A stretch of DNA of 26,193 bases from the IMG/VR virus record IMGVR_UViG_2636415673_000003; one strand, given 5' to 3'. The notes under the pieces are model-generated. The model did not search any database and was not told the origin of the DNA. It worked only from the letters and a program-made list of their open reading frames with translations. Within the stretch, counting starts at the first letter, position 1. Every line of letters begins with the position of its first letter. This stretch comes from a virus (Duplodnaviria; Heunggongvirae; Uroviricota; Caudoviricetes). Positions 3,510 through 24,641 of this stretch are shown here, in pieces. Position numbers and translations under genes: made by a program.

Positions 3510-4398
3510 TTGTCACCCCCATTGATATGCAGGGTGTCTTCTTCCTGTATTTTTCGTGAAGGATTTTTACTGCAGCGTTGTTCCAGGTGACCTGATGGTG
3601 AATGCGTTTATGGCTGGCACCCATCAGTGAGATTTTTACGCACGACGGCGCATACATGACGGAGTAAAAACTTTTAACGTAGGTTCCGGAATCCAGATAC
3701 AGCTCGGTCATTCCGCCGCTGTTTTTCTGCGTCTGTTTCTGCCCTAACTGGACAGCACCGATCGTCATAAACAATTCACCACAGCGACCGAGATTCGTGT
3801 ACGTATTCACATCCTCGTTAATGCGCCCCATGAATGAGAACGGTCGATCAACCGAACAGATAAAGCTGTTCATTGCCTTGCGTTTCACCCACGAAGCATG
3901 GCCGCCATTGTCACCAAGAAAATCCCCGCCCTGCGACATAGCGATGGAAAGAGCAGGTATTGATTCGTAGTACGCCAGCATTTCAGAAAGGATCGCATCC
4001 AGTTTCCTTATCGGAAAATAGGCCTGGTCATAGTTGCGATCCACCCGAAACTGGAACTCGTGATAATCATCATCGAGCTGAATGAAGTATTTACACCCGA
4101 CCAGTTTTGCCAGGTCGAAACAGGCATTACGGGCGTAAAAAATTGAGCGGCGGTCACAGAAATTATCGGCTTCGTCAAAACGACTGGCGATATCGGCTTT
4201 GGAAAACACCAGCACCTGTTCACCAAATTCAGCCATGTACTGATGCCGTGTCTTATCTTCATCATCAACAACGATAAAAATTTTCCCGGTATAGCCAGCA
4301 CGACGCAACGTCCGGTAAGTCAGAACTTTGTCCGGTCGCCCGTGAGTCAGAATAAAGGCGCAAAAATCATCACGCATATTCCTCCTCCTCACCACCAT
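3445..4398 (-). CDS. Hypothetical protein, possibly a GT-A-fold nucleotide-sugar transferase
   Basis: 317 aa ORF. N-terminal CAFILTHGRP...IFIVVDDEDK followed about 65 residues later by QLDDDY resembles the GT-A beta-strand/DxD arrangement. Lacks methyltransferase (FxGxG, D/NPPY) and PAPS-reductase (SGGxDS) motifs. Likely start at MRDDF (4377), coupled to the upstream ParB-like gene. Confidence 0.5.
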   Translation of the reverse strand: MVVRRRNMRDDFCAFILTHGRPDKVLTYRTLRRAGYTGKIFIVVDDEDKTRHQYMAEFGEQVLVFSKADIASRFDEADNFCDRRSIFYARNACFDLAKLVGCKYFIQLDDDYHEFQFRVDRNYDQAYFPIRKLDAILSEMLAYYESIPALSIAMSQGGDFLGDNGGHASWVKRKAMNSFICSVDRPFSFMGRINEDVNTYTNLGRCGELFMTIGAVQLGQKQTQKNSGGMTELYLDSGTYVKSFYSVMYAPSCVKISLMGASHKRIHHQVTWNNAAVKILHEKYRKKTPCISMGVTNDSVFESRVSGSVPDDCTTNR

Positions 4399-5298: not shown

Positions 5299-6774
5299 TT
5301 AGGAGCGCCAAAAAAAACCTGAAAACAATATAATAACAGGATAAATTTCAAGGCGACCAAGAATCATAGCTATGCACATTAAACATTTTGCAATGTCATT
5401 AAGCACTCCGAATGACGATGCAGTAGCCCCAAAACCTAATCCCATATTATTAATACATGCAGCCACTGTTGCAAATGATGTAAGAAAATCATATCCCATA
5501 CCATTTAACACCAGTATAAAAAACACCGTGAAGAGAGTATAAAGAAAAAAGAAACTCCATACAGACCTCATTACACGATCTGTAACTATCTTCCCTCCTA
5601 CATTTACACTCAACAACGCTCTGGGATGAGAAAGCTGATTTATCTCGTGTTTGCTTTGTTTGAAAAGTATAAGAAATCGAAGTGACTTAATTCCACCACA
5701 AGTTGAACCTATACATCCCCCAAAGAAACTTGACAACAGCAAAAACACTATCGTGTGCGTGGGCCAACTTGCATAATCCTGCGTAGCTAAACCATTATCA
5801 GTGAGCATGGAGCTGGCAAGAAAAAACGAATGAATAAAACTTCCATGCAAGTCATACATACCTATATGCCAGACCTGGAAAGAGGTAACAATGATCACCC
5901 CTAAGGCTATTAACAGAAAGAAACGAAGTTCAATATCTCTGATTAAAGGTTTTATCGTTTTCCTGCTAATAACAATATACCAAAGAGTGAAGTTGAAAGC
6001 CGATAGCAGGGAAAAAGAACCAGCCACCAGCTCAACCAAATAGTTATTAAAATATCCGATACTCTCGCTATGAGTTGAGAAACCACCAAGCGAAACTGTG
6101 GAAATCCCGTGACAAATAGCATCAAACAAAGGCATTCCTGCAAGTCTATAACAGACAATACAAGCAATACCTAATAAAGAATAAGTTATCCACAGTGTCC
6201 GTGACGTATCGGCCAGGCGGGGAGTGAGTTTGTCATCCTTAAATGGCCCCGGCATTTCTGACTGATAAAGCTTTGCACCACCAATACCCAATAATGGCAA
6301 TACAGCAACCGCCAGAACAATAACTCCTAAACCACCTATAAAATTTAACTGTGACCGATAGTACAAATATGCCCGAGGTAATGAACTAACATCATCAATT
6401 ACAGTTGCTCCTGTTGTTGTTATTCCAGAAACCCCTTCAAACAGAGCATCAATGAACGTTAAATTAAGTTCTGAGTCAATCCATAAAGGGAATGCACTAA
6501 TAACAGAAAACAAAATCCAAAACATTACAATTATAATAAACCCATCACGGGTACGTAATTGAATGCCAGATTTCTTAGTTGTATACCACGCTCCGCCACC
6601 AATGCAAAAAAATATAACGAAAGTTATAAAGAAAACGAACAGGCTTTTTTCTTTATAAAACAATGCTACAACCATTGGTGGCAACATTGAAAGACTATAG
6701 AGCCAAACCAGGAACCCACACATATGAGTAACAACTCTTACATGAGATGTATTCATATCTAAATATTCTTTCAA
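5299..6774 (-). CDS. trkG: TrkG, Trk-system K+ uptake membrane protein (prophage cargo gene)
   Basis: 491 aa polytopic membrane protein of the TrkH/TrkG family; AT-rich; positioned just past Rz/Rz1, as I recall for trkG in K-12 Rac. Confidence 0.9.
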   Translation of the reverse strand: MKEYLDMNTSHVRVVTHMCGFLVWLYSLSMLPPMVVALFYKEKSLFVFFITFVIFFCIGGGAWYTTKKSGIQLRTRDGFIIIVMFWILFSVISAFPLWIDSELNLTFIDALFEGVSGITTTGATVIDDVSSLPRAYLYYRSQLNFIGGLGVIVLAVAVLPLLGIGGAKLYQSEMPGPFKDDKLTPRLADTSRTLWITYSLLGIACIVCYRLAGMPLFDAICHGISTVSLGGFSTHSESIGYFNNYLVELVAGSFSLLSAFNFTLWYIVISRKTIKPLIRDIELRFFLLIALGVIIVTSFQVWHIGMYDLHGSFIHSFFLASSMLTDNGLATQDYASWPTHTIVFLLLSSFFGGCIGSTCGGIKSLRFLILFKQSKHEINQLSHPRALLSVNVGGKIVTDRVMRSVWSFFFLYTLFTVFFILVLNGMGYDFLTSFATVAACINNMGLGFGATASSFGVLNDIAKCLMCIAMILGRLEIYPVIILFSGFFWRS

Positions 6775-10743: not shown

Positions 10744-11021
10744 TTCTCAATCTCTCGATGGCGCAGTGCAGCAGATGCCAGTTGTTCAGGCTGACGAATA
10801 AAGTATAAATAAACTGGCTATGGTGTAAAGCTCCACATAACATGAACAAACACTACATATCAAATAGCTGATACAAGGATAGAAATACAACACTTATTAT
10901 TAAAAACGATTAGATAAATTACATTTTAATGTTATGAAAAAGTTCTTTTTTATCATAACATTTCAACAAAAGCATTACAGATGCACATCCCGTCATCATC
11001 AATTATTTAAGGTGGTTAAAC

Positions 11022-11108
11022 ATGGAAAATAACAACTATGCACATCTCGCTCCTTTTTTATCCGTAATCCTTTTCGCTGGCTGTTTTATATGGGCATTAT
11101 TTTTATAA
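11022..11108 (+). CDS. Small hydrophobic peptide (28 aa), possible type I toxin-like or small membrane protein
   Basis: ATG at 11022 with AAGGTGG 6 nt upstream. MENNNYAHLAPFLSVILFAGCFIWALFL has a polar N-terminus and a single TM-like C-terminus. Too short for the ORF track. Confidence 0.35.
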   Translation: MENNNYAHLAPFLSVILFAGCFIWALFL

Positions 11109-11181
11109 AGTAGCCGCATGATTAGTTTCTGGAATCATGTTTCCCACTCAAATCATTAACATTTGATAAGATATATCTAAA

Positions 11182-11243
11182 AGGATGCCTTTACATTATT
11201 TGATGCGTATATGATTTATTTATATGCACAGTAAAGGCATCCT
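11182..11243. repeat. 13-bp perfect inverted repeat (AGGATGCCTTTAC ... GTAAAGGCATCCT) separated by 36 nt
   Basis: Read directly from the sequence. On the minus strand it is followed by TTTT, so it may act as a terminator or a protein-binding palindrome. Confidence 0.5.
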
Positions 11244-11555
11244 GGAAATAATCAAGATTAATGATATATTGCTTATCTCATCCCCCACTGTCTTTCACCC
11301 GGAAAACATTTATCGTTAAAAATATATCATAAGTAATTAAATTGAAATTTCAGAACACAACTAATGCACACAATAAGATTCAGTAACAGTAATCTATGCG
11401 GACTATATCGAGATTTTTTAGTTAAACTTTAATAAGTTATTCCTAACACACAGAATGCACAAACTAAAAGTAAAACAAATAGTTATACGAAAAACAACCA
11501 TATTGATTCTATCTTCTCCTCTAATCAACATATCAATTATGTGTTTCATAACAGC

Positions 11556-11595
11556 TTGACATAACCCTCAAAAAGGTGCATTTATAATGCATGTT
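11556..11595 (+). promoter_or_regulatory. Promoter of the yeaR-like gene with an NsrR-type operator overlapping the -10
   Basis: TTGACA (11556-11561), TATAAT (11584-11589), and AAGGTGCATTT-A-TAATGCATGTT (11573-11595), which matches the NsrR inverted repeat (AAnATGCATTT-n-AAATGCATnTT) as I recall it. The 21-nt spacer is atypical. Confidence 0.5.
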
Positions 11596-11610
11596 TTATG
11601 GGAGGTGGTT

Positions 11611-11952
11611 ATGACACACAAGAGAATTCCTAAAGACTGGGTAATCAAACGCTCAACTCCGTTCTTCACAAAAGAGAACGTACCTTCAGCGTTATTAACA
11701 CATCATAATACAGCAGCAGGTGTTTTTGGACAGTTATGCGTGATGGAAGGTACTGTAACATATTATGGTTTTGCTGATGAGAATGCTACTGAACCGGAGA
11801 TAAAAGTAGTCATTAATGCTGGCGCTTTTGCAACAAGCCCACCACAATACTGGCACCGTGTTGAACTAAGCGATGATGCTCAGTTTAATATTAACTTTTG
11901 GGTAGCTCCAGACTTCTCAGGCGAAAAAGTCTATACCGCAAAAAAAGAATAG
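11611..11952 (+). CDS. YeaR-like protein (DUF1971 / TehB N-terminal-domain-like)
   Basis: GGAGG 5 nt upstream of ATG 11611. RSTPFF...CVMEGTVTYYGFADE...EPE...NAGAFATSPPQYWH...FNINFWVAPD resembles E. coli YeaR as recalled. Confidence 0.75.
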   Translation: MTHKRIPKDWVIKRSTPFFTKENVPSALLTHHNTAAGVFGQLCVMEGTVTYYGFADENATEPEIKVVINAGAFATSPPQYWHRVELSDDAQFNINFWVAPDFSGEKVYTAKKE

Positions 11953-12034
11953 CCACGCTATAAATATCTTATTAACTAGTCCCGGCGTGGTTCTTTCCCC
12001 GCTGGGTCTTTTACTCAGATTAGTAGTCTACGAA

Positions 12035-12160
12035 TCAGAGCCTCCGTCTGCCAGTTCGGATTCGTACCTCGCAGAGGTCTTTCCTCGTTACCAGTGCCGT
12101 CACTATGACGGTTAAACAGATGACGATCAGGGCGATTAACATCGCCTTTTGCTGCTTCAT
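12035..12160 (-). CDS. hok: Hok-family type I toxin with truncated/divergent C-terminus (41 aa)
   Basis: MKQQKAMLIALIVICLTVIVTALVTRKDLCEVRIRTG matches the HokD/RelF N-terminus as recalled, then ends RRRL-stop instead of the usual ~15 further residues. A short upstream ORF ends in ATGA overlapping the hok start (mok-like coupling). Confidence 0.75.
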   Translation of the reverse strand: MKQQKAMLIALIVICLTVIVTALVTRKDLCEVRIRTGRRRL

Positions 12161-12330
12161 AGCCTGCTTCTCCTTGACCTTTCGGTCCGTAAGAGGCTAA
12201 TCTCTATGTGTCGCATAGATATGGCCTCAGATTAATGTTAAACGTCTTGCAGGACGCGTAATGTTAACTGGGGCTTTTCTCTATCTACCTTTGGTGTTCA
12301 TGCCCGAGGCAGATAGCCTCAAGCACCCAC
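12161..12330. promoter_or_regulatory. hok mRNA leader / mok-like frame / expected Sok antisense RNA region
   Basis: By analogy with hok/sok loci, Sok is encoded antisense to the hok leader; the exact promoter and terminator were not resolved by eye. Confidence 0.35.
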
Positions 12331-12682
12331 AGCAATTCTAACTATCCAATACATCACTGCCAACACTTTAAACTCTTACCCTTTAAAACAAGAACAAAAT
12401 TCAACCAATCAGCATTGGGCGTATACTCATATCCTAGAGAAAACAACTCTTTCTGTACTATTTATATCCATATGATTTATAAGCATTTGCCACTTGCCAT
12501 AGCCGCACAATGACAGTTTGCCATTTGATGTCAATAGATAAAAATGATCGTTTTCAATGAGTTACATACTTGCAAGGCGTTGCACATCAGGCCCGATTAC
12601 GTCAGTATCAAAAGATTACAGATGGTGCATTACTGCCACTTCGCCTTAATGTTCCAGAACTCTCCAACTTGAGGAATTTTCA

Positions 12683-13456
12683 ATGACATCCTTTCAATTA
12701 TCTTTGATTTCTCGTGAAATTGACGGCGAAATAATACATTTACGTGCCAAAGATGGTTACATAAACGCCACATCAATGTGTAGAACTGCGGGCAAACTGC
12801 TCTCTGATTACACTAGACTCAAAACTACTCAAGAGTTTTTTGACGAATTATCACGCGATATGGGAATTCCCATATCGGAGTTAATTCAATCATTTAAAGG
12901 TGGAAGACCTGAAAACCAAGGGACATGGGTGCATCCTGACATCGCTATTAATCTAGCGCAGTGGCTATCGCCCAAATTTGCAGTCCAGGTTTCAAGATGG
13001 GTTCGTGAATGGATGTCAGGGGAAAGAACTACAGCAGAAATGCCTGTACATTTAAAACGGTACATGGTTAATCGTAGTAGAATTCCTCACACGCACTTTT
13101 CTATTCTTAATGAACTGACATTCAACTTGGTTGCACCTCTTGAACAAGCAGGGTACACACTCCCAGAAAAAATGGTTCCTGACATTTCACAAGGAAGAGT
13201 ATTTTCACAATGGTTAAGAGATAATAGAAACGTAGAACCCAAAACATTCCCTACCTATGACCATGAATATCCCGATGGTCGCGTATACCCTGCAAGGCTG
13301 TACCCAAATGAATATTTAGCAGATTTCAAAGAACATTTTAACAATATTTGGTTGCCGCAATATGCCCCGAAATACTTCGCTGACCGGGACAAAAAGGCTC
13401 TCGCCTTGATTGAAAAAATTATGCTACCTAACCTCGATGGCAATGAACAGTTCTAA
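12683..13456 (+). CDS. KilA-N domain protein (N-terminal KilA-N/APSES-like DNA-binding domain; C-terminal ~130 aa unknown)
   Basis: IDGEIIHLRAKDGYINATSMCRTAGK...WVHPDIAINLAQWLSPKFAVQVSRWV is a KilA-N signature. AT-rich gene with its own RBS (GAGG) and a downstream terminator. Confidence 0.8.
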   Translation: MTSFQLSLISREIDGEIIHLRAKDGYINATSMCRTAGKLLSDYTRLKTTQEFFDELSRDMGIPISELIQSFKGGRPENQGTWVHPDIAINLAQWLSPKFAVQVSRWVREWMSGERTTAEMPVHLKRYMVNRSRIPHTHFSILNELTFNLVAPLEQAGYTLPEKMVPDISQGRVFSQWLRDNRNVEPKTFPTYDHEYPDGRVYPARLYPNEYLADFKEHFNNIWLPQYAPKYFADRDKKALALIEKIMLPNLDGNEQF

Positions 13457-24265: not shown

Positions 24266-24460
24266 ATGAGATATGACAATGTTAAACCATGTCCATTTTG
24301 TGGTTGTCCATCAGTAACGGTGAAAGTCATTTCAGGATATTACCGAGCGAAGTGTAACGGATGCGAATCCCGAACCGGTTATGGTGGAAGTGAAAAAGAA
24401 GCACTCGAAAGATGGAATAAACGAACCACTGGAAATAATAACGGAGGTGTTCATGTATAA
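24266..24460 (+). CDS. ralR: RalR (Lar) restriction-alleviation protein / type I toxin DNase
   Basis: MRYDNVKPCPFCGCPSVTVKVISGYYRAKCNGCESRTGYGGSEKEALERWNKR... (64 aa). Confidence 0.9.
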   Translation: MRYDNVKPCPFCGCPSVTVKVISGYYRAKCNGCESRTGYGGSEKEALERWNKRTTGNNNGGVHV

Positions 24461-24641
24461 AATTACCGCCACTATTGAAAAGGAAGGTGGCACTCCTACT
24501 AACTGGACAAGATATTCAAAATCTAAACTAACGAAATCAGAATGCGAAAAAATGCTCTCAGGTAAAAAAGAAGCAGGCGTTTCCAGAGAGCAGAAAGTAA
24601 AACTGATAAATTTTAATTGCGAGAAACTTCAGTCCTCGTGA
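24453..24641 (+). CDS. ydaC: YdaC (DUF1187-type) small protein
   Basis: MYKITATIEKEGGTPTNWTRYSKSKLTKSECEKMLSGKKEAG...; ACGGAGGTG upstream; overlaps the ralR stop. Confidence 0.8.
   Translation: MYKITATIEKEGGTPTNWTRYSKSKLTKSECEKMLSGKKEAGVSREQKVKLINFNCEKLQSS

What the first reader, a model, noticed from the sequence alone, without database searches (positions are those of the whole stretch)
12035..12330. hok/sok-type type I toxin locus with a C-terminally truncated Hok (41 aa)
The N-terminal 37 residues match HokD/RelF as I recall it, including the TM segment and the RKDLCE motif, but the frame ends RRRL-stop where Hok proteins normally continue for about 15 residues. Restoring one base extends the frame but still does not reproduce a canonical Hok tail. 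It is either an inactivated hok or a natural short variant. A short mok-like frame ends in ATGA over the hok start.
Basis: partly seen in the sequence, partly recalled or inferred. Interest (0 to 1): 0.45.

Follow-up and report, generated by a model that had tools for sequence, protein, structure and literature searches.

The report
Decayed hok/sok toxin locus in prophage
This is a real but broken copy of the well-known hok/sok toxin-antitoxin cassette, sitting in a Rac-like E. coli prophage: the toxin gene has lost its tail and the messenger RNA has lost the 3' end it needs for regulation, while the antitoxin RNA half still looks intact, so it is an ordinary decaying relic.

Summary
A 41-codon Hok ORF lies at 12035-12160 (-). 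Upstream are a complete hok leader, matched by Rfam sok at 101.5 bits, and a 19-codon mok ending in ATGA over the hok start. An antisense Sok gene is placed at 12210-12278 (+) by homology to sokW of phage 933W.

Seven intact hokD/hokW loci were aligned. Codons 1-37 match HokD. Then come a 1-nt deletion, a rearranged block that is 2 nt shorter and creates the TGA, a G>T change that makes a second in-frame stop and destroys the TACG editing motif, and a 3-nt deletion.

Homology ends at about 11990-11997. The 3' arm of the terminal hairpin, the fbi element and the terminator are gone, replaced by a DUF1971 gene cassette. The 5'-3' end-pairing predicted for an intact locus is absent here.

The locus is therefore most likely toxin-dead and unable to perform post-segregational killing, but it probably still makes Sok.

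It is not an assembly error. The allele is identical in about 103-106 of 5,426 complete E. coli genomes and is annotated in RefSeq as WP_001445775.1. All copies belong to one young prophage lineage, and one copy shows further decay. Already known in kind; low interest.

The parts
12335..12363 (-). Putative hok/mok mRNA promoter, TTGGCA-17-TAGAAT. Only the -10 hexamer lies inside the conserved hok cassette; homology to other loci ends at about 12340.
   Evidence: Promoter scan gives 10 of 12 consensus matches. Alignment shows TAGAAT conserved in all 7 intact loci and a divergent -35 region. The predicted start, about 12328, coincides with the first position of the Rfam match.
12161..12328 (-). 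hok mRNA 5' leader. It contains the tac element (12317-12328, GGGUGCUUGAGG), the ucb/anti-SD region, the Sok-target region and the mok frame.
   Evidence: Rfam RF01794, 101.5 bits, model positions 1-157 of 157. It differs from intact S8/KTa008 hokD by 4 substitutions and 1 indel in 169 columns. Only one change is private at an otherwise invariant column (12287, which keeps a G-U pair).
12157..12216 (-). mok leader ORF of 19 codons. A GAGG Shine-Dalgarno lies at 12225-12228, and the TGA stop overlaps the hok ATG (ATGA).
   Evidence: Translation. The sequence is identical in the intact loci L002 and L009. In R1, mok translation only up to the hok start is needed for hok translation.
12035..12160 (-). 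Truncated hok ORF: 41 codons plus TGA. Codons 1-37 equal HokD; the tail RRRL comes from a frameshift.
   Evidence: RefSeq annotates the same ORF as WP_001445775.1, Hok/Gef family protein. Lesions: a 1-nt deletion between 12051 and 12050, and a rearranged block at 12035-12040.
11997..12034 (-). Decayed remainder of the hok coding region, plus the old TAA stop (12011-12013) and the 5' arm of the former terminal hairpin. It holds a second in-frame stop (TAA 12020-12022, from G>T at 12022, which also changes TACG to TACT) and a 3-nt deletion between 12016 and 12015.
   Evidence: Alignment with 7 intact loci. Window-private changes at otherwise invariant columns number 9 of 60 here against 2 of 283 upstream, Fisher p=4e-6. 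In-frame read-through translation is ...RRRL*FVDY*SE*.
12174..12203 (+). Putative Sok promoter: TTGACC (12174-12179), 18-nt spacer, TAATCT (12198-12203).
   Evidence: Read directly from the sequence. The position is correct relative to the annotated sokW start in 933W. There are no window-private changes here. It fell below the threshold of the promoter scan.
12210..12278 (+). Sok antisense RNA gene, complementary to the mok SD and start region. It has a single-stranded 5' tail and a long terminator hairpin followed by UUUUCUCU.
   Evidence: Coordinates transferred from the sokW misc_RNA of phage 933W through the alignment. Fold energy is -27.3 kcal/mol, z=-4.8, with the same architecture as sokW and S8 Sok.
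11941..11996 (-). Replacement 3' sequence with no homology to hok loci. It lacks the 3' arm of the terminal hairpin, fbi (CCUCAACGCACCC in intact loci) and the GC-rich terminator. It contains only a weak hairpin (AUAGC-GUG-GCUAU) plus a U-run at 11941-11965, which might end the transcript.
   Evidence: Searches show the conserved 3' UTR of intact loci. No fbi-like sequence occurs anywhere in the window at up to 2 mismatches. No terminator was called. No 5'-3' end pairing appears in the fold.
11587..11952 (+). Neighbouring DUF1971 (TehB-like) gene cassette, convergent with hok. Its arrival or recombination replaced the hok 3' UTR. It is context, not part of the toxin-antitoxin cassette.
   Evidence: Pfam DUF1971, E=3.5e-26. 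The cassette is found in 466 E. coli genomes. In about 347 of them it matches only up to window 11948, and in the one such genome examined (strain C2) there is no hok next to it.

Best explanation
This is a degenerate hokD/hokW-type hok/sok cassette, about 344 bp of family homology (11997-12340), in the early-right 'moron' slot of a Rac-like lambdoid prophage.

Shown from sequence:
- The 5' half is intact: the -10 hexamer, tac, ucb, the 19-codon mok coupled to hok by an ATGA overlap, the Sok promoter, and Sok RNA with its terminator hairpin.
- The toxin ORF is cut after codon 37 by a 1-nt deletion and carries further lesions downstream.
- The whole functional 3' UTR has been replaced by unrelated DNA belonging to a DUF1971 cassette. 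That UTR comprised the 3' arm of the protective stem-loop, fbi and the terminator.

Inferred mechanism:
- The promoter still fires. Without fbi, the transcript cannot be stored as the inert, stable, end-paired full-length form.
- It folds directly into the tac-stem 'open' form, which Sok binds and which is then degraded.
- Without the terminal stem-loop it is also exposed to 3'-5' exonucleases.
- Any peptide made lacks the periplasmic tail, including conserved E40 and the Tyr47 codon that TadA editing recodes to Cys. It also has a net +5 C-terminal flank in place of -2.

The locus should therefore neither kill nor stabilise the prophage by post-segregational killing. What probably remains is constitutive Sok RNA.

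The clean 5' half is best explained by recency, or by recombination with other hok copies, rather than by proven selection.
For: - Identity of the locus: Rfam sok 101.5 bits; Pfam HOK_GEF E=3e-16; RefSeq Hok/Gef annotation; 37 of 37 residues equal to HokD.
- Lesions: alignments with 7 intact loci. Private changes at invariant columns are 9 of 60 in the 3' segment against 2 of 283 upstream, p=4e-6. There are two in-frame stops.
- Lost 3' UTR: all 7 intact loci conserve the hairpin GGCG(A/G)GG..CC(C/T)CGCC and CCTCAACGCACCC. The window has neither.
- Folding: intact S8 hokD pairs nt 1-12 with fbi at probability about 1.0. The window RNA instead pairs its 5' end locally with AAGCCCC, which is the tac-stem.
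- Literature on R1 hok: 18 of the 20 hok codons that a single substitution can turn into a stop were recovered as loss-of-function premature stops; M46I, Y48N, C-terminal tags or extensions, and 19 substitutions weakening the terminal stem-loop also abolish toxicity; fbi/tac end-pairing keeps the full-length mRNA inert (PMC9841398).
- Other literature: the C-terminal periplasmic part of Gef has been proposed as the toxic domain (PMC8509063). Position 46/47 Cys, DNA-encoded or produced by TACG editing, is important (PMC12214031; bioRxiv 10.1101/2025.08.07.668861).
- Continuing decay and recombination in the lineage: IMG/VR copy L016 has lost window 12145-12236. L014 has a recombinant leader 5' end.
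- Sok: it is intact and folds like sokW.
Against: - No expression or toxicity data exist for this allele.
- Other type I toxins of 19-35 aa are toxic with little more than a transmembrane helix, so residual toxicity on overexpression cannot be excluded.
- The near absence of private changes in the 283-nt 5' half, against heavy damage in the 3' 60 nt, is not what uniform neutral decay predicts. It could reflect selection on the Sok/leader half.
- The clustered 3' lesions could have arisen in one messy junction event rather than by gradual decay.
- Structure predictions are thermodynamic models only, and the true 3' end of the transcript is unknown.
Confidence: 0.78

Rival explanations
1. Sok-only immunity (anti-addiction) module. 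The toxin is dead, but the leader/Sok half is kept by selection because Sok from this prophage neutralises hok mRNAs of the same specificity group (S8/KTa008-type hokD) carried by co-resident or incoming prophages and plasmids.
For: - The Sok gene and its promoter carry no window-private change, whereas the adjacent toxin 3' end carries at least four lesions.
- Sok folds normally.
- Its sequence differs by one base from the Sok of intact S8-type loci, so cross-pairing is plausible.
- E. coli genomes hold a median of 2 and up to 9 hokD-like places, and strain 7/2 has 4.
- The anti-addiction idea for chromosomal toxin-antitoxin loci is discussed in the Hok catalogue preprint.
Against: - All known copies are at most about 0.1% diverged over 2.7 kb, so the clean 5' half may simply be young.
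- One copy (L016) has deleted the Sok promoter and the Sok 5' end.
- L014 shows that recombination tracts end inside the leader, which can equally explain the asymmetry.
- There is no expression evidence.
Confidence: 0.12
2. A functional natural short Hok. The 41-aa peptide, a transmembrane helix plus a polybasic RKDLCEVRIRTGRRRL tail, is still a membrane toxin, possibly with inverted topology, and the locus works as a simplified type I toxin-antitoxin system.
For: - The transmembrane segment, the RKDLCE motif, the mok coupling, the SD and the promoter are intact.
- The ORF is just above the 40-aa cut-off used by the Hok catalogue.
- Alanine changes at conserved Hok residues, including E41 and E49, do not abolish toxicity on overexpression.
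Against: - In R1 Hok, premature stops and C-terminal changes are loss-of-function, and a truncated Hok control is non-toxic.
- The tail is a frameshift product followed by a second in-frame stop and more indels, which is the signature of decay rather than a selected new terminus.
- The mRNA lacks the stabilising hairpin and fbi.
- The sequence was not found in the held text of the catalogue supplements.
Confidence: 0.08
3. Sequencing, assembly or reading artefact: the real gene is full length.
For: None found. A single homopolymer-type 1-nt deletion (GG-C) on its own could have suggested it.
Against: - The allele is identical in 103-106 independent complete genomes, in 7 IMG/VR contigs and on at least 1,000 contigs.
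- Multiple lesions and a replaced 3' UTR cannot be a single-base error.
Confidence: 0.01

Closest known systems
hokD (relF) loci of E. coli prophages, with rem or other small cargo genes downstream (e.g. strains S8 and KTa008; HokD WP_000813254.1)
   Same: - The 169-column leader differs by 4 substitutions and 1 indel.
- The 19-codon mok with its ATGA overlap is identical.
- Hok codons 1-37 differ by one synonymous base.
- Sok differs by 1 nt.
- The position in a lambdoid early-right/nin region is the same.
   Different: Those loci encode 51 aa (…GQTEVAVFTAYEPEE). They keep the terminal hairpin, fbi and the terminator, and are predicted to form the 12-bp tac/fbi end-pairing. This locus has none of these.
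hokW/mokW/sokW of Shiga-toxin phage 933W (AF125520)
   Same: Same subfamily, about 92% DNA identity over 344 bp. Its annotated sokW and hokW allowed the coordinates to be transferred. The C-terminal remnant here (FVDY) resembles the HokW tail VFVDYESEK.
   Different: mokW is 70 codons and in frame with hokW. The Sok 5' tail differs at several positions, which probably gives a different specificity. The toxin and 3' UTR are intact.
hok/sok of plasmid R1 (the paradigm)
   Same: Same architecture: promoter, tac, ucb, mok 19 codons upstream of hok, an antisense Sok with a 5' tail and terminator hairpin, and a Hok transmembrane peptide. This follows from established knowledge and PMC9841398.
   Different: R1 has fbi end-pairing, 3' processing, a protective terminal stem-loop and a 52-aa toxin, all of which are needed for post-segregational killing. 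This locus lacks them.
Inactivated chromosomal hok loci of E. coli K-12 (hokA, C and E disrupted by IS elements; hokD by rearrangement)
   Same: These are decayed hok cassettes in which components of the canonical system are missing, as summarised in PMC12214031. K-12 hokD matches only the toxin half of the query (H27-H29).
   Different: K-12 hokD has lost the 5' regulatory and Sok half and kept the toxin ORF and 3' end. This locus is the mirror image: the 5'/Sok half is kept, and the toxin tail and 3' UTR are lost.

Membership tests
[quoted passage not shown] | Small ORF with Hok/Gef homology: an N-terminal transmembrane helix and the R-K-x-L-C-E motif | tested here: met
   Pfam HOK_GEF 59.1 bits against a cut-off of 22. 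37 of 37 residues identical to HokD.
[quoted passage not shown] | Full-length toxin of about 50 aa with a periplasmic C-terminal domain (conserved Glu40/41 and Cys or editable Tyr at position 46-48) | tested here: not met
   The ORF ends at codon 41. Pfam profile positions 35-42 are unmatched. The frame is shifted after G37, and TACG has become TACT.
[quoted passage not shown] | Conserved structured 5' leader with tac, ucb and the Sok-target region | tested here: met
   Rfam RF01794 full-length match, 101.5 bits, GA 59. The predicted tac-stem forms.
[quoted passage not shown] | mok leader ORF whose translation is coupled to hok | tested here: met
   A 19-codon ORF with a GAGG SD and an ATGA overlap, identical to that of intact hokD loci. 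Coupling itself was not tested.
[quoted passage not shown] | cis-encoded antisense Sok RNA with its own promoter, a single-stranded 5' tail and a terminator hairpin | tested here: met
   Homology transfer from the annotated sokW gives 12210-12278 (+). Hairpin plus U-tract fold, z=-4.8. Transcription was not tested.
[quoted passage not shown] | fbi element at the mRNA 3' end, pairing with tac (fold-back inhibition) | tested here: not met
   fbi (CCTCAACGCACCC) is conserved in 7 of 7 intact loci. It is absent from the whole window at up to 2 mismatches. There is no end-pairing in the fold, against probability about 1.0 in S8 hokD.
[quoted passage not shown] | GC-rich terminal stem-loop that protects the processed mRNA, followed by a terminator | tested here: not met
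   Only the 5' arm (AGCGGGG) remains and homology ends at about 11990-11997. No terminator was called.
[quoted passage not shown] | Toxicity of the peptide and post-segregational killing, or repression by Sok | not testable with these tools
   Requires expression, rifampicin-chase and stabilisation assays.

The most novel reading that the evidence does not exclude
The toxin-dead cassette may be retained as a Sok-only decoy or immunity element. It would protect the lysogen, or this prophage, from killing by same-specificity hokD loci on competing prophages or plasmids. Alternatively, the 41-aa polybasic-tailed peptide may be a new short, topology-inverted Hok derivative with residual membrane activity.
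Probability: 0.15. Interest if true: 0.45.

Novelty: already known. Interest (0 to 1): 0.15.

Why it matters
The significance is mainly for annotation. [quoted passage not shown] Genome surveys that use a 40-aa length cut-off would count it as a potentially active toxin. The mRNA anatomy says it is not a working killer module.

It is also a tidy natural example of how hok/sok cassettes die, and the mirror image of K-12 hokD: here the toxin tail and the fbi 3' UTR are lost while Sok is kept. It further shows that cargo-gene exchange in lambdoid prophages can cut a toxin-antitoxin cassette inside its regulatory RNA.

If Sok were shown to be expressed and to cross-protect, the locus would add a case to the anti-addiction hypothesis. 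That remains speculative.

Tried and rejected
- I looked for a displaced fbi, or the rest of the 3' UTR, on the far side of the DUF1971 cassette. There is none in the whole window, so this is a replacement and not a simple insertion.
- I tested whether the new 3' tail forms a substitute fold-back with the hok SD and AUG, as the MFE fold suggested. The duplex energy is no better than 28% of shuffled tails, so I rejected it.
- I looked for intermediate alleles, either frameshifted with an intact 3' UTR or intact hok next to DUF1971. None exist among 5,426 E. coli genomes: full-length matches drop from at least 99% to at most 89% identity, and the diverged copy of the DUF1971 cassette examined (strain C2) has no hok beside it.
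- An exact-pattern scan of one genome per species found nothing.
- I considered the three GenBank 'phage' records carrying the allele as evidence for an active phage. They are PHASTER-predicted prophages from clinical isolates.
- I searched the Hok catalogue supplements for the 41-aa sequence. It is not in the held text, although some files were cut when stored.
- Supplementary tables of PMC9841398, which list the positions of the premature stops, are not held.
- Within-lineage SNPs carry no information on constraint, because the copies differ by 0.1% or less.
- I ran no further search on other truncated Hok forms, since it would not change the verdict.

Full report
**What is in the sequence**

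The minus strand of 11997-12363 holds a hok/sok-type cassette.
- ORF listing gives a 41-codon frame at 12035..12160 (-), MKQQKAMLIALIVICLTVIVTALVTRKDLCEVRIRTGRRRL*.
- It matches Pfam HOK_GEF at E=3.2e-16, but only over profile positions 1-34 of 42.
- Rfam's sok family (RF01794) matches 12158-12328 on the hok-sense strand over its full length: 101.5 bits against a gathering score of 59, E=3e-22. This model describes the hok leader; Sok itself lies on the other strand.
- A promoter-like site, TTGGCA-17-TAGAAT, lies at 12363..12335 (-). It places the transcript start at about 12328, the first base of the Rfam match.
It has a GAGG Shine-Dalgarno, and its TGA overlaps the hok ATG.

**Genomic context**

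The window is a Rac-like lambdoid prophage.
- RalA sRNA lies at 24459-24637.
- In the 100%-identical E. coli strain 7/2 the neighbours are trkG, holin/lysozyme/Rz, a Q-like DUF1133 protein, DUF1367/DUF1364, a KilA-N protein and ydaT/ydaV.
- RefSeq already annotates the 41-aa ORF there as WP_001445775.1, 'Hok/Gef family protein'.

**Where the truncation comes from**

I aligned the locus with seven intact hokD/hokW-type loci from other prophages, including 933W with its annotated hokW, mokW and sokW.
- From the transcript start to codon 37, the window differs from the S8/KTa008 hokD loci by 4 substitutions and 1 indel in the 169-column leader, and by 1 synonymous substitution in codons 1-37.
- After codon 37 the lesions are:
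  - a 1-nt deletion between 12051 and 12050;
  - a block at 12035-12040 (GGTCGCTGTC to GGCTCTGA, net -2 nt) that contains the TGA stop;
  - G>T at 12022, which makes a second in-frame stop (TAA) and turns the TACG motif into TACT;
  - a 3-nt deletion between 12016 and 12015;
  - G>A at 12010.
- In frame, the region reads ...RTGRRRL*FVDY*SE*.
- Window-private changes at columns invariant among the seven intact loci number 9 of 60 in this 3' segment, against 2 of 283 in the leader plus codons 1-37 (Fisher p=4e-6). The block may be one complex event, so the number of independent events is at least four rather than nine.

- All seven intact loci conserve three elements after the stop codon:
  - a GC-rich stem-loop, GGCG(A/G)GGGA..TC(C/T)C(C/T)CGCC;
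  - CATCCTCAACGCACCCGC, whose CCUCAA(C)GCACCC is complementary to the 5' end GGGUGCUUGAGG, making it the fbi partner of tac;
  - in most of them, an intrinsic terminator.
- In the window, homology stops at about 11990-11997, inside the 5' arm of that stem-loop.
- What follows is unrelated DNA leading into the convergent DUF1971 gene (11587-11952, +).
- No fbi-like sequence exists anywhere in the window at up to 2 mismatches. The DNA beyond the DUF1971 gene is AT-rich non-coding sequence, not the missing UTR.
- Folding the intact S8 transcript gives a 12-bp 5'-3' end-pairing with pair probabilities of about 1.0.
- Folding the window transcript gives no end-pairing. Its 5' end pairs locally with AAGCCCC, equivalent to the tac-stem of the 'open' form described for R1.
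- A predicted pairing of the hok SD and AUG with the new 3' tail is no better than shuffled tails (28% as good), so I do not count it.

**The Sok half looks intact**

- Transferring the sokW annotation of 933W through the alignment places Sok at 12210-12278 (+).
- Upstream lie TTGACC (12174-12179), an 18-nt spacer and TAATCT (12198-12203).
- The RNA folds as a 5' single-stranded tail plus a long hairpin followed by UUUUCUCU: -27.3 kcal/mol, z=-4.8. SokW and S8 Sok fold the same way.
- There are no window-private changes in Sok or its promoter.

**Population data**

- About 87% of the 5,426 complete E. coli genomes carry hokD-like sequence, with a median of 2 places per genome.
- This exact allele with its flanks occurs in 103-106 of them at 99% identity or better. 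No intermediate allele exists: the next-best full-length matches to the 3' part are at most 89% identical.
- The 41-aa protein is on at least 1,000 contigs and is named as a multispecies Hok/Gef protein.
- Seven IMG/VR contigs carry the allele.
- All copies differ by 0.1% or less over 2.7 kb, so this is one young prophage lineage, and its frequency says nothing about selection.
- Two variants are informative:
  - L016 has a further deletion of window 12145-12236, which removes the hok start, mok, the Sok promoter and the Sok 5' end;
  - L014 has the same truncated hok and junction, but a recombinant 5' end of the leader and a different upstream neighbour.
- Decay therefore continues, and recombination tracts end inside the cassette.
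- The three GenBank 'phage' records with the allele are PHASTER-predicted prophages, not isolated virions.

**Mechanism, and which steps are shown or inferred**

For R1 hok/sok (PMC9841398):
- The full-length mRNA is kept inert by tac/fbi end-pairing.
- Slow 3' processing yields the truncated form, which refolds, can be translated through mok and is the form Sok binds.
- 19 substitutions that weaken the terminal stem-loop abolish toxicity by destabilising that form.
- 18 of the 20 hok codons that one substitution can turn into a stop were recovered as loss-of-function premature stops. M46I, Y48N, stop-codon loss and a C-terminal tag are also loss-of-function.
- mok translation is needed only up to the hok start, so a 19-codon mok is sufficient.

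Other published results:
- A truncated Hok control is non-toxic on overexpression (bioRxiv 10.1101/2025.08.07.668861).
- The periplasmic C-terminus of Gef/HokC has been proposed as the toxic domain (PMC8509063).
- A Cys at position 46, DNA-encoded or made by TadA editing of a TACG Tyr codon as in hokD, is important (PMC12214031).

From these I infer three things about this locus.
- It cannot build the stable, inert mRNA pool that post-segregational killing needs.
- Its transcript is open to Sok and to exonucleases from the start.
- Its peptide lacks the functional tail.

From the sequence alone, the C-terminal flank changes from net -2 in HokD to net +5, which by the positive-inside rule also argues against normal N-in/C-out insertion.

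Shown here: the lesions, the missing elements and the predicted folds. Not shown here: transcription, RNA stability and non-toxicity.

**Open point**

The asymmetry between a clean 5' half and a damaged 3' end is not what uniform neutral decay predicts. There are three explanations:
- a single messy junction event when the DUF1971 cassette arrived;
- recombinational refreshment of the 5' half from other hok copies, supported in principle by L014;
- selection for Sok as an anti-addiction or immunity RNA.

The data do not separate these. The L016 deletion and the youth of the lineage make me rank selection lowest.

**Comparison with known systems, and verdict**

- The locus works like, and descends from, the hokD/hokW subgroup of hok/sok.
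- As a sequence family member it passes on the toxin N-terminal domain, the leader, mok and Sok.
- It fails on full-length toxin, fbi and the terminal stem-loop.
- It is therefore a degenerate member, the mirror image of K-12 hokD, which kept the toxin half and lost the 5' half.
- Decayed chromosomal and prophage hok loci are well documented, and this ORF is already in RefSeq.

I rate it already known in kind and of low interest. The main practical value is a caution for annotation and for surveys that use a 40-aa cut-off.

Noticed in passing
window 24381-24641: This is the RalR/RalA type I toxin-antitoxin pair of Rac. RalA sRNA lies at 24459-24637 (-), 225 bits over the full-length model, and overlaps an 86-aa ORF at 24381-24641 (+) that is presumably ralR. 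The prophage therefore carries a second, apparently intact, RNA-antitoxin system.
   Followed up: partly
window 10750-11952: A DUF1971/TehB-like gene (11587-11952, +) is preceded by about 850 bp of AT-rich non-coding DNA. It looks like a foreign cargo-gene cassette. It occurs in 466 of 5,426 E. coli genomes. In about 347 of them, at about 96% identity, the match stops at the gene's end, and in the one example examined (strain C2) it lies next to chromosomal genes with no hok beside it.
   Followed up: partly
L016 2402 (IMGVR_UViG_3300007747_000074), corresponding to window 12145-12236: One copy of the same prophage lineage has an additional 92-bp deletion that removes the hok start, mok, the Sok promoter and the Sok 5' end. 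The cassette is still decaying.
   Followed up: yes
L014 about 3690-3742 (IMGVR_UViG_2718218453_000005), corresponding to window 12287-12340: This copy has the same truncated hok and junction, but six clustered differences at the 5' end of the leader and a different upstream neighbour. This indicates a recombination breakpoint inside the hok leader.
   Followed up: partly
window 12157-12216 versus L003/L006 (933W mokW): Intact hokD-type loci have two mok architectures. One is a 19-codon mok ending in ATGA on the hok start (S8, KTa008 and this window). The other is a 70-codon mok in frame with hok (933W, NZRM4165). They differ by a 2-nt and a 1-nt indel in the leader.
   Followed up: partly
window 12683-13456: A KilA-N domain gene (257 aa, Pfam E=4e-27) is transcribed divergently from the hok promoter. 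The -35 region of the hok promoter lies in sequence specific to this context.
   Followed up: no
window 5299-6774: A trkG-like potassium transporter gene lies inside the prophage between the lysis and terminase modules, as in K-12 Rac.
   Followed up: no
GenBank ON470614, ON470616, ON470590: Records named as phages (vB_EcoS-666R9 and others) that match 92% of the window at 99.3% identity are PHASTER-predicted prophages from carbapenemase-producing clinical isolates, not sequenced virions. They do not annotate the hok ORF.
   Followed up: yes
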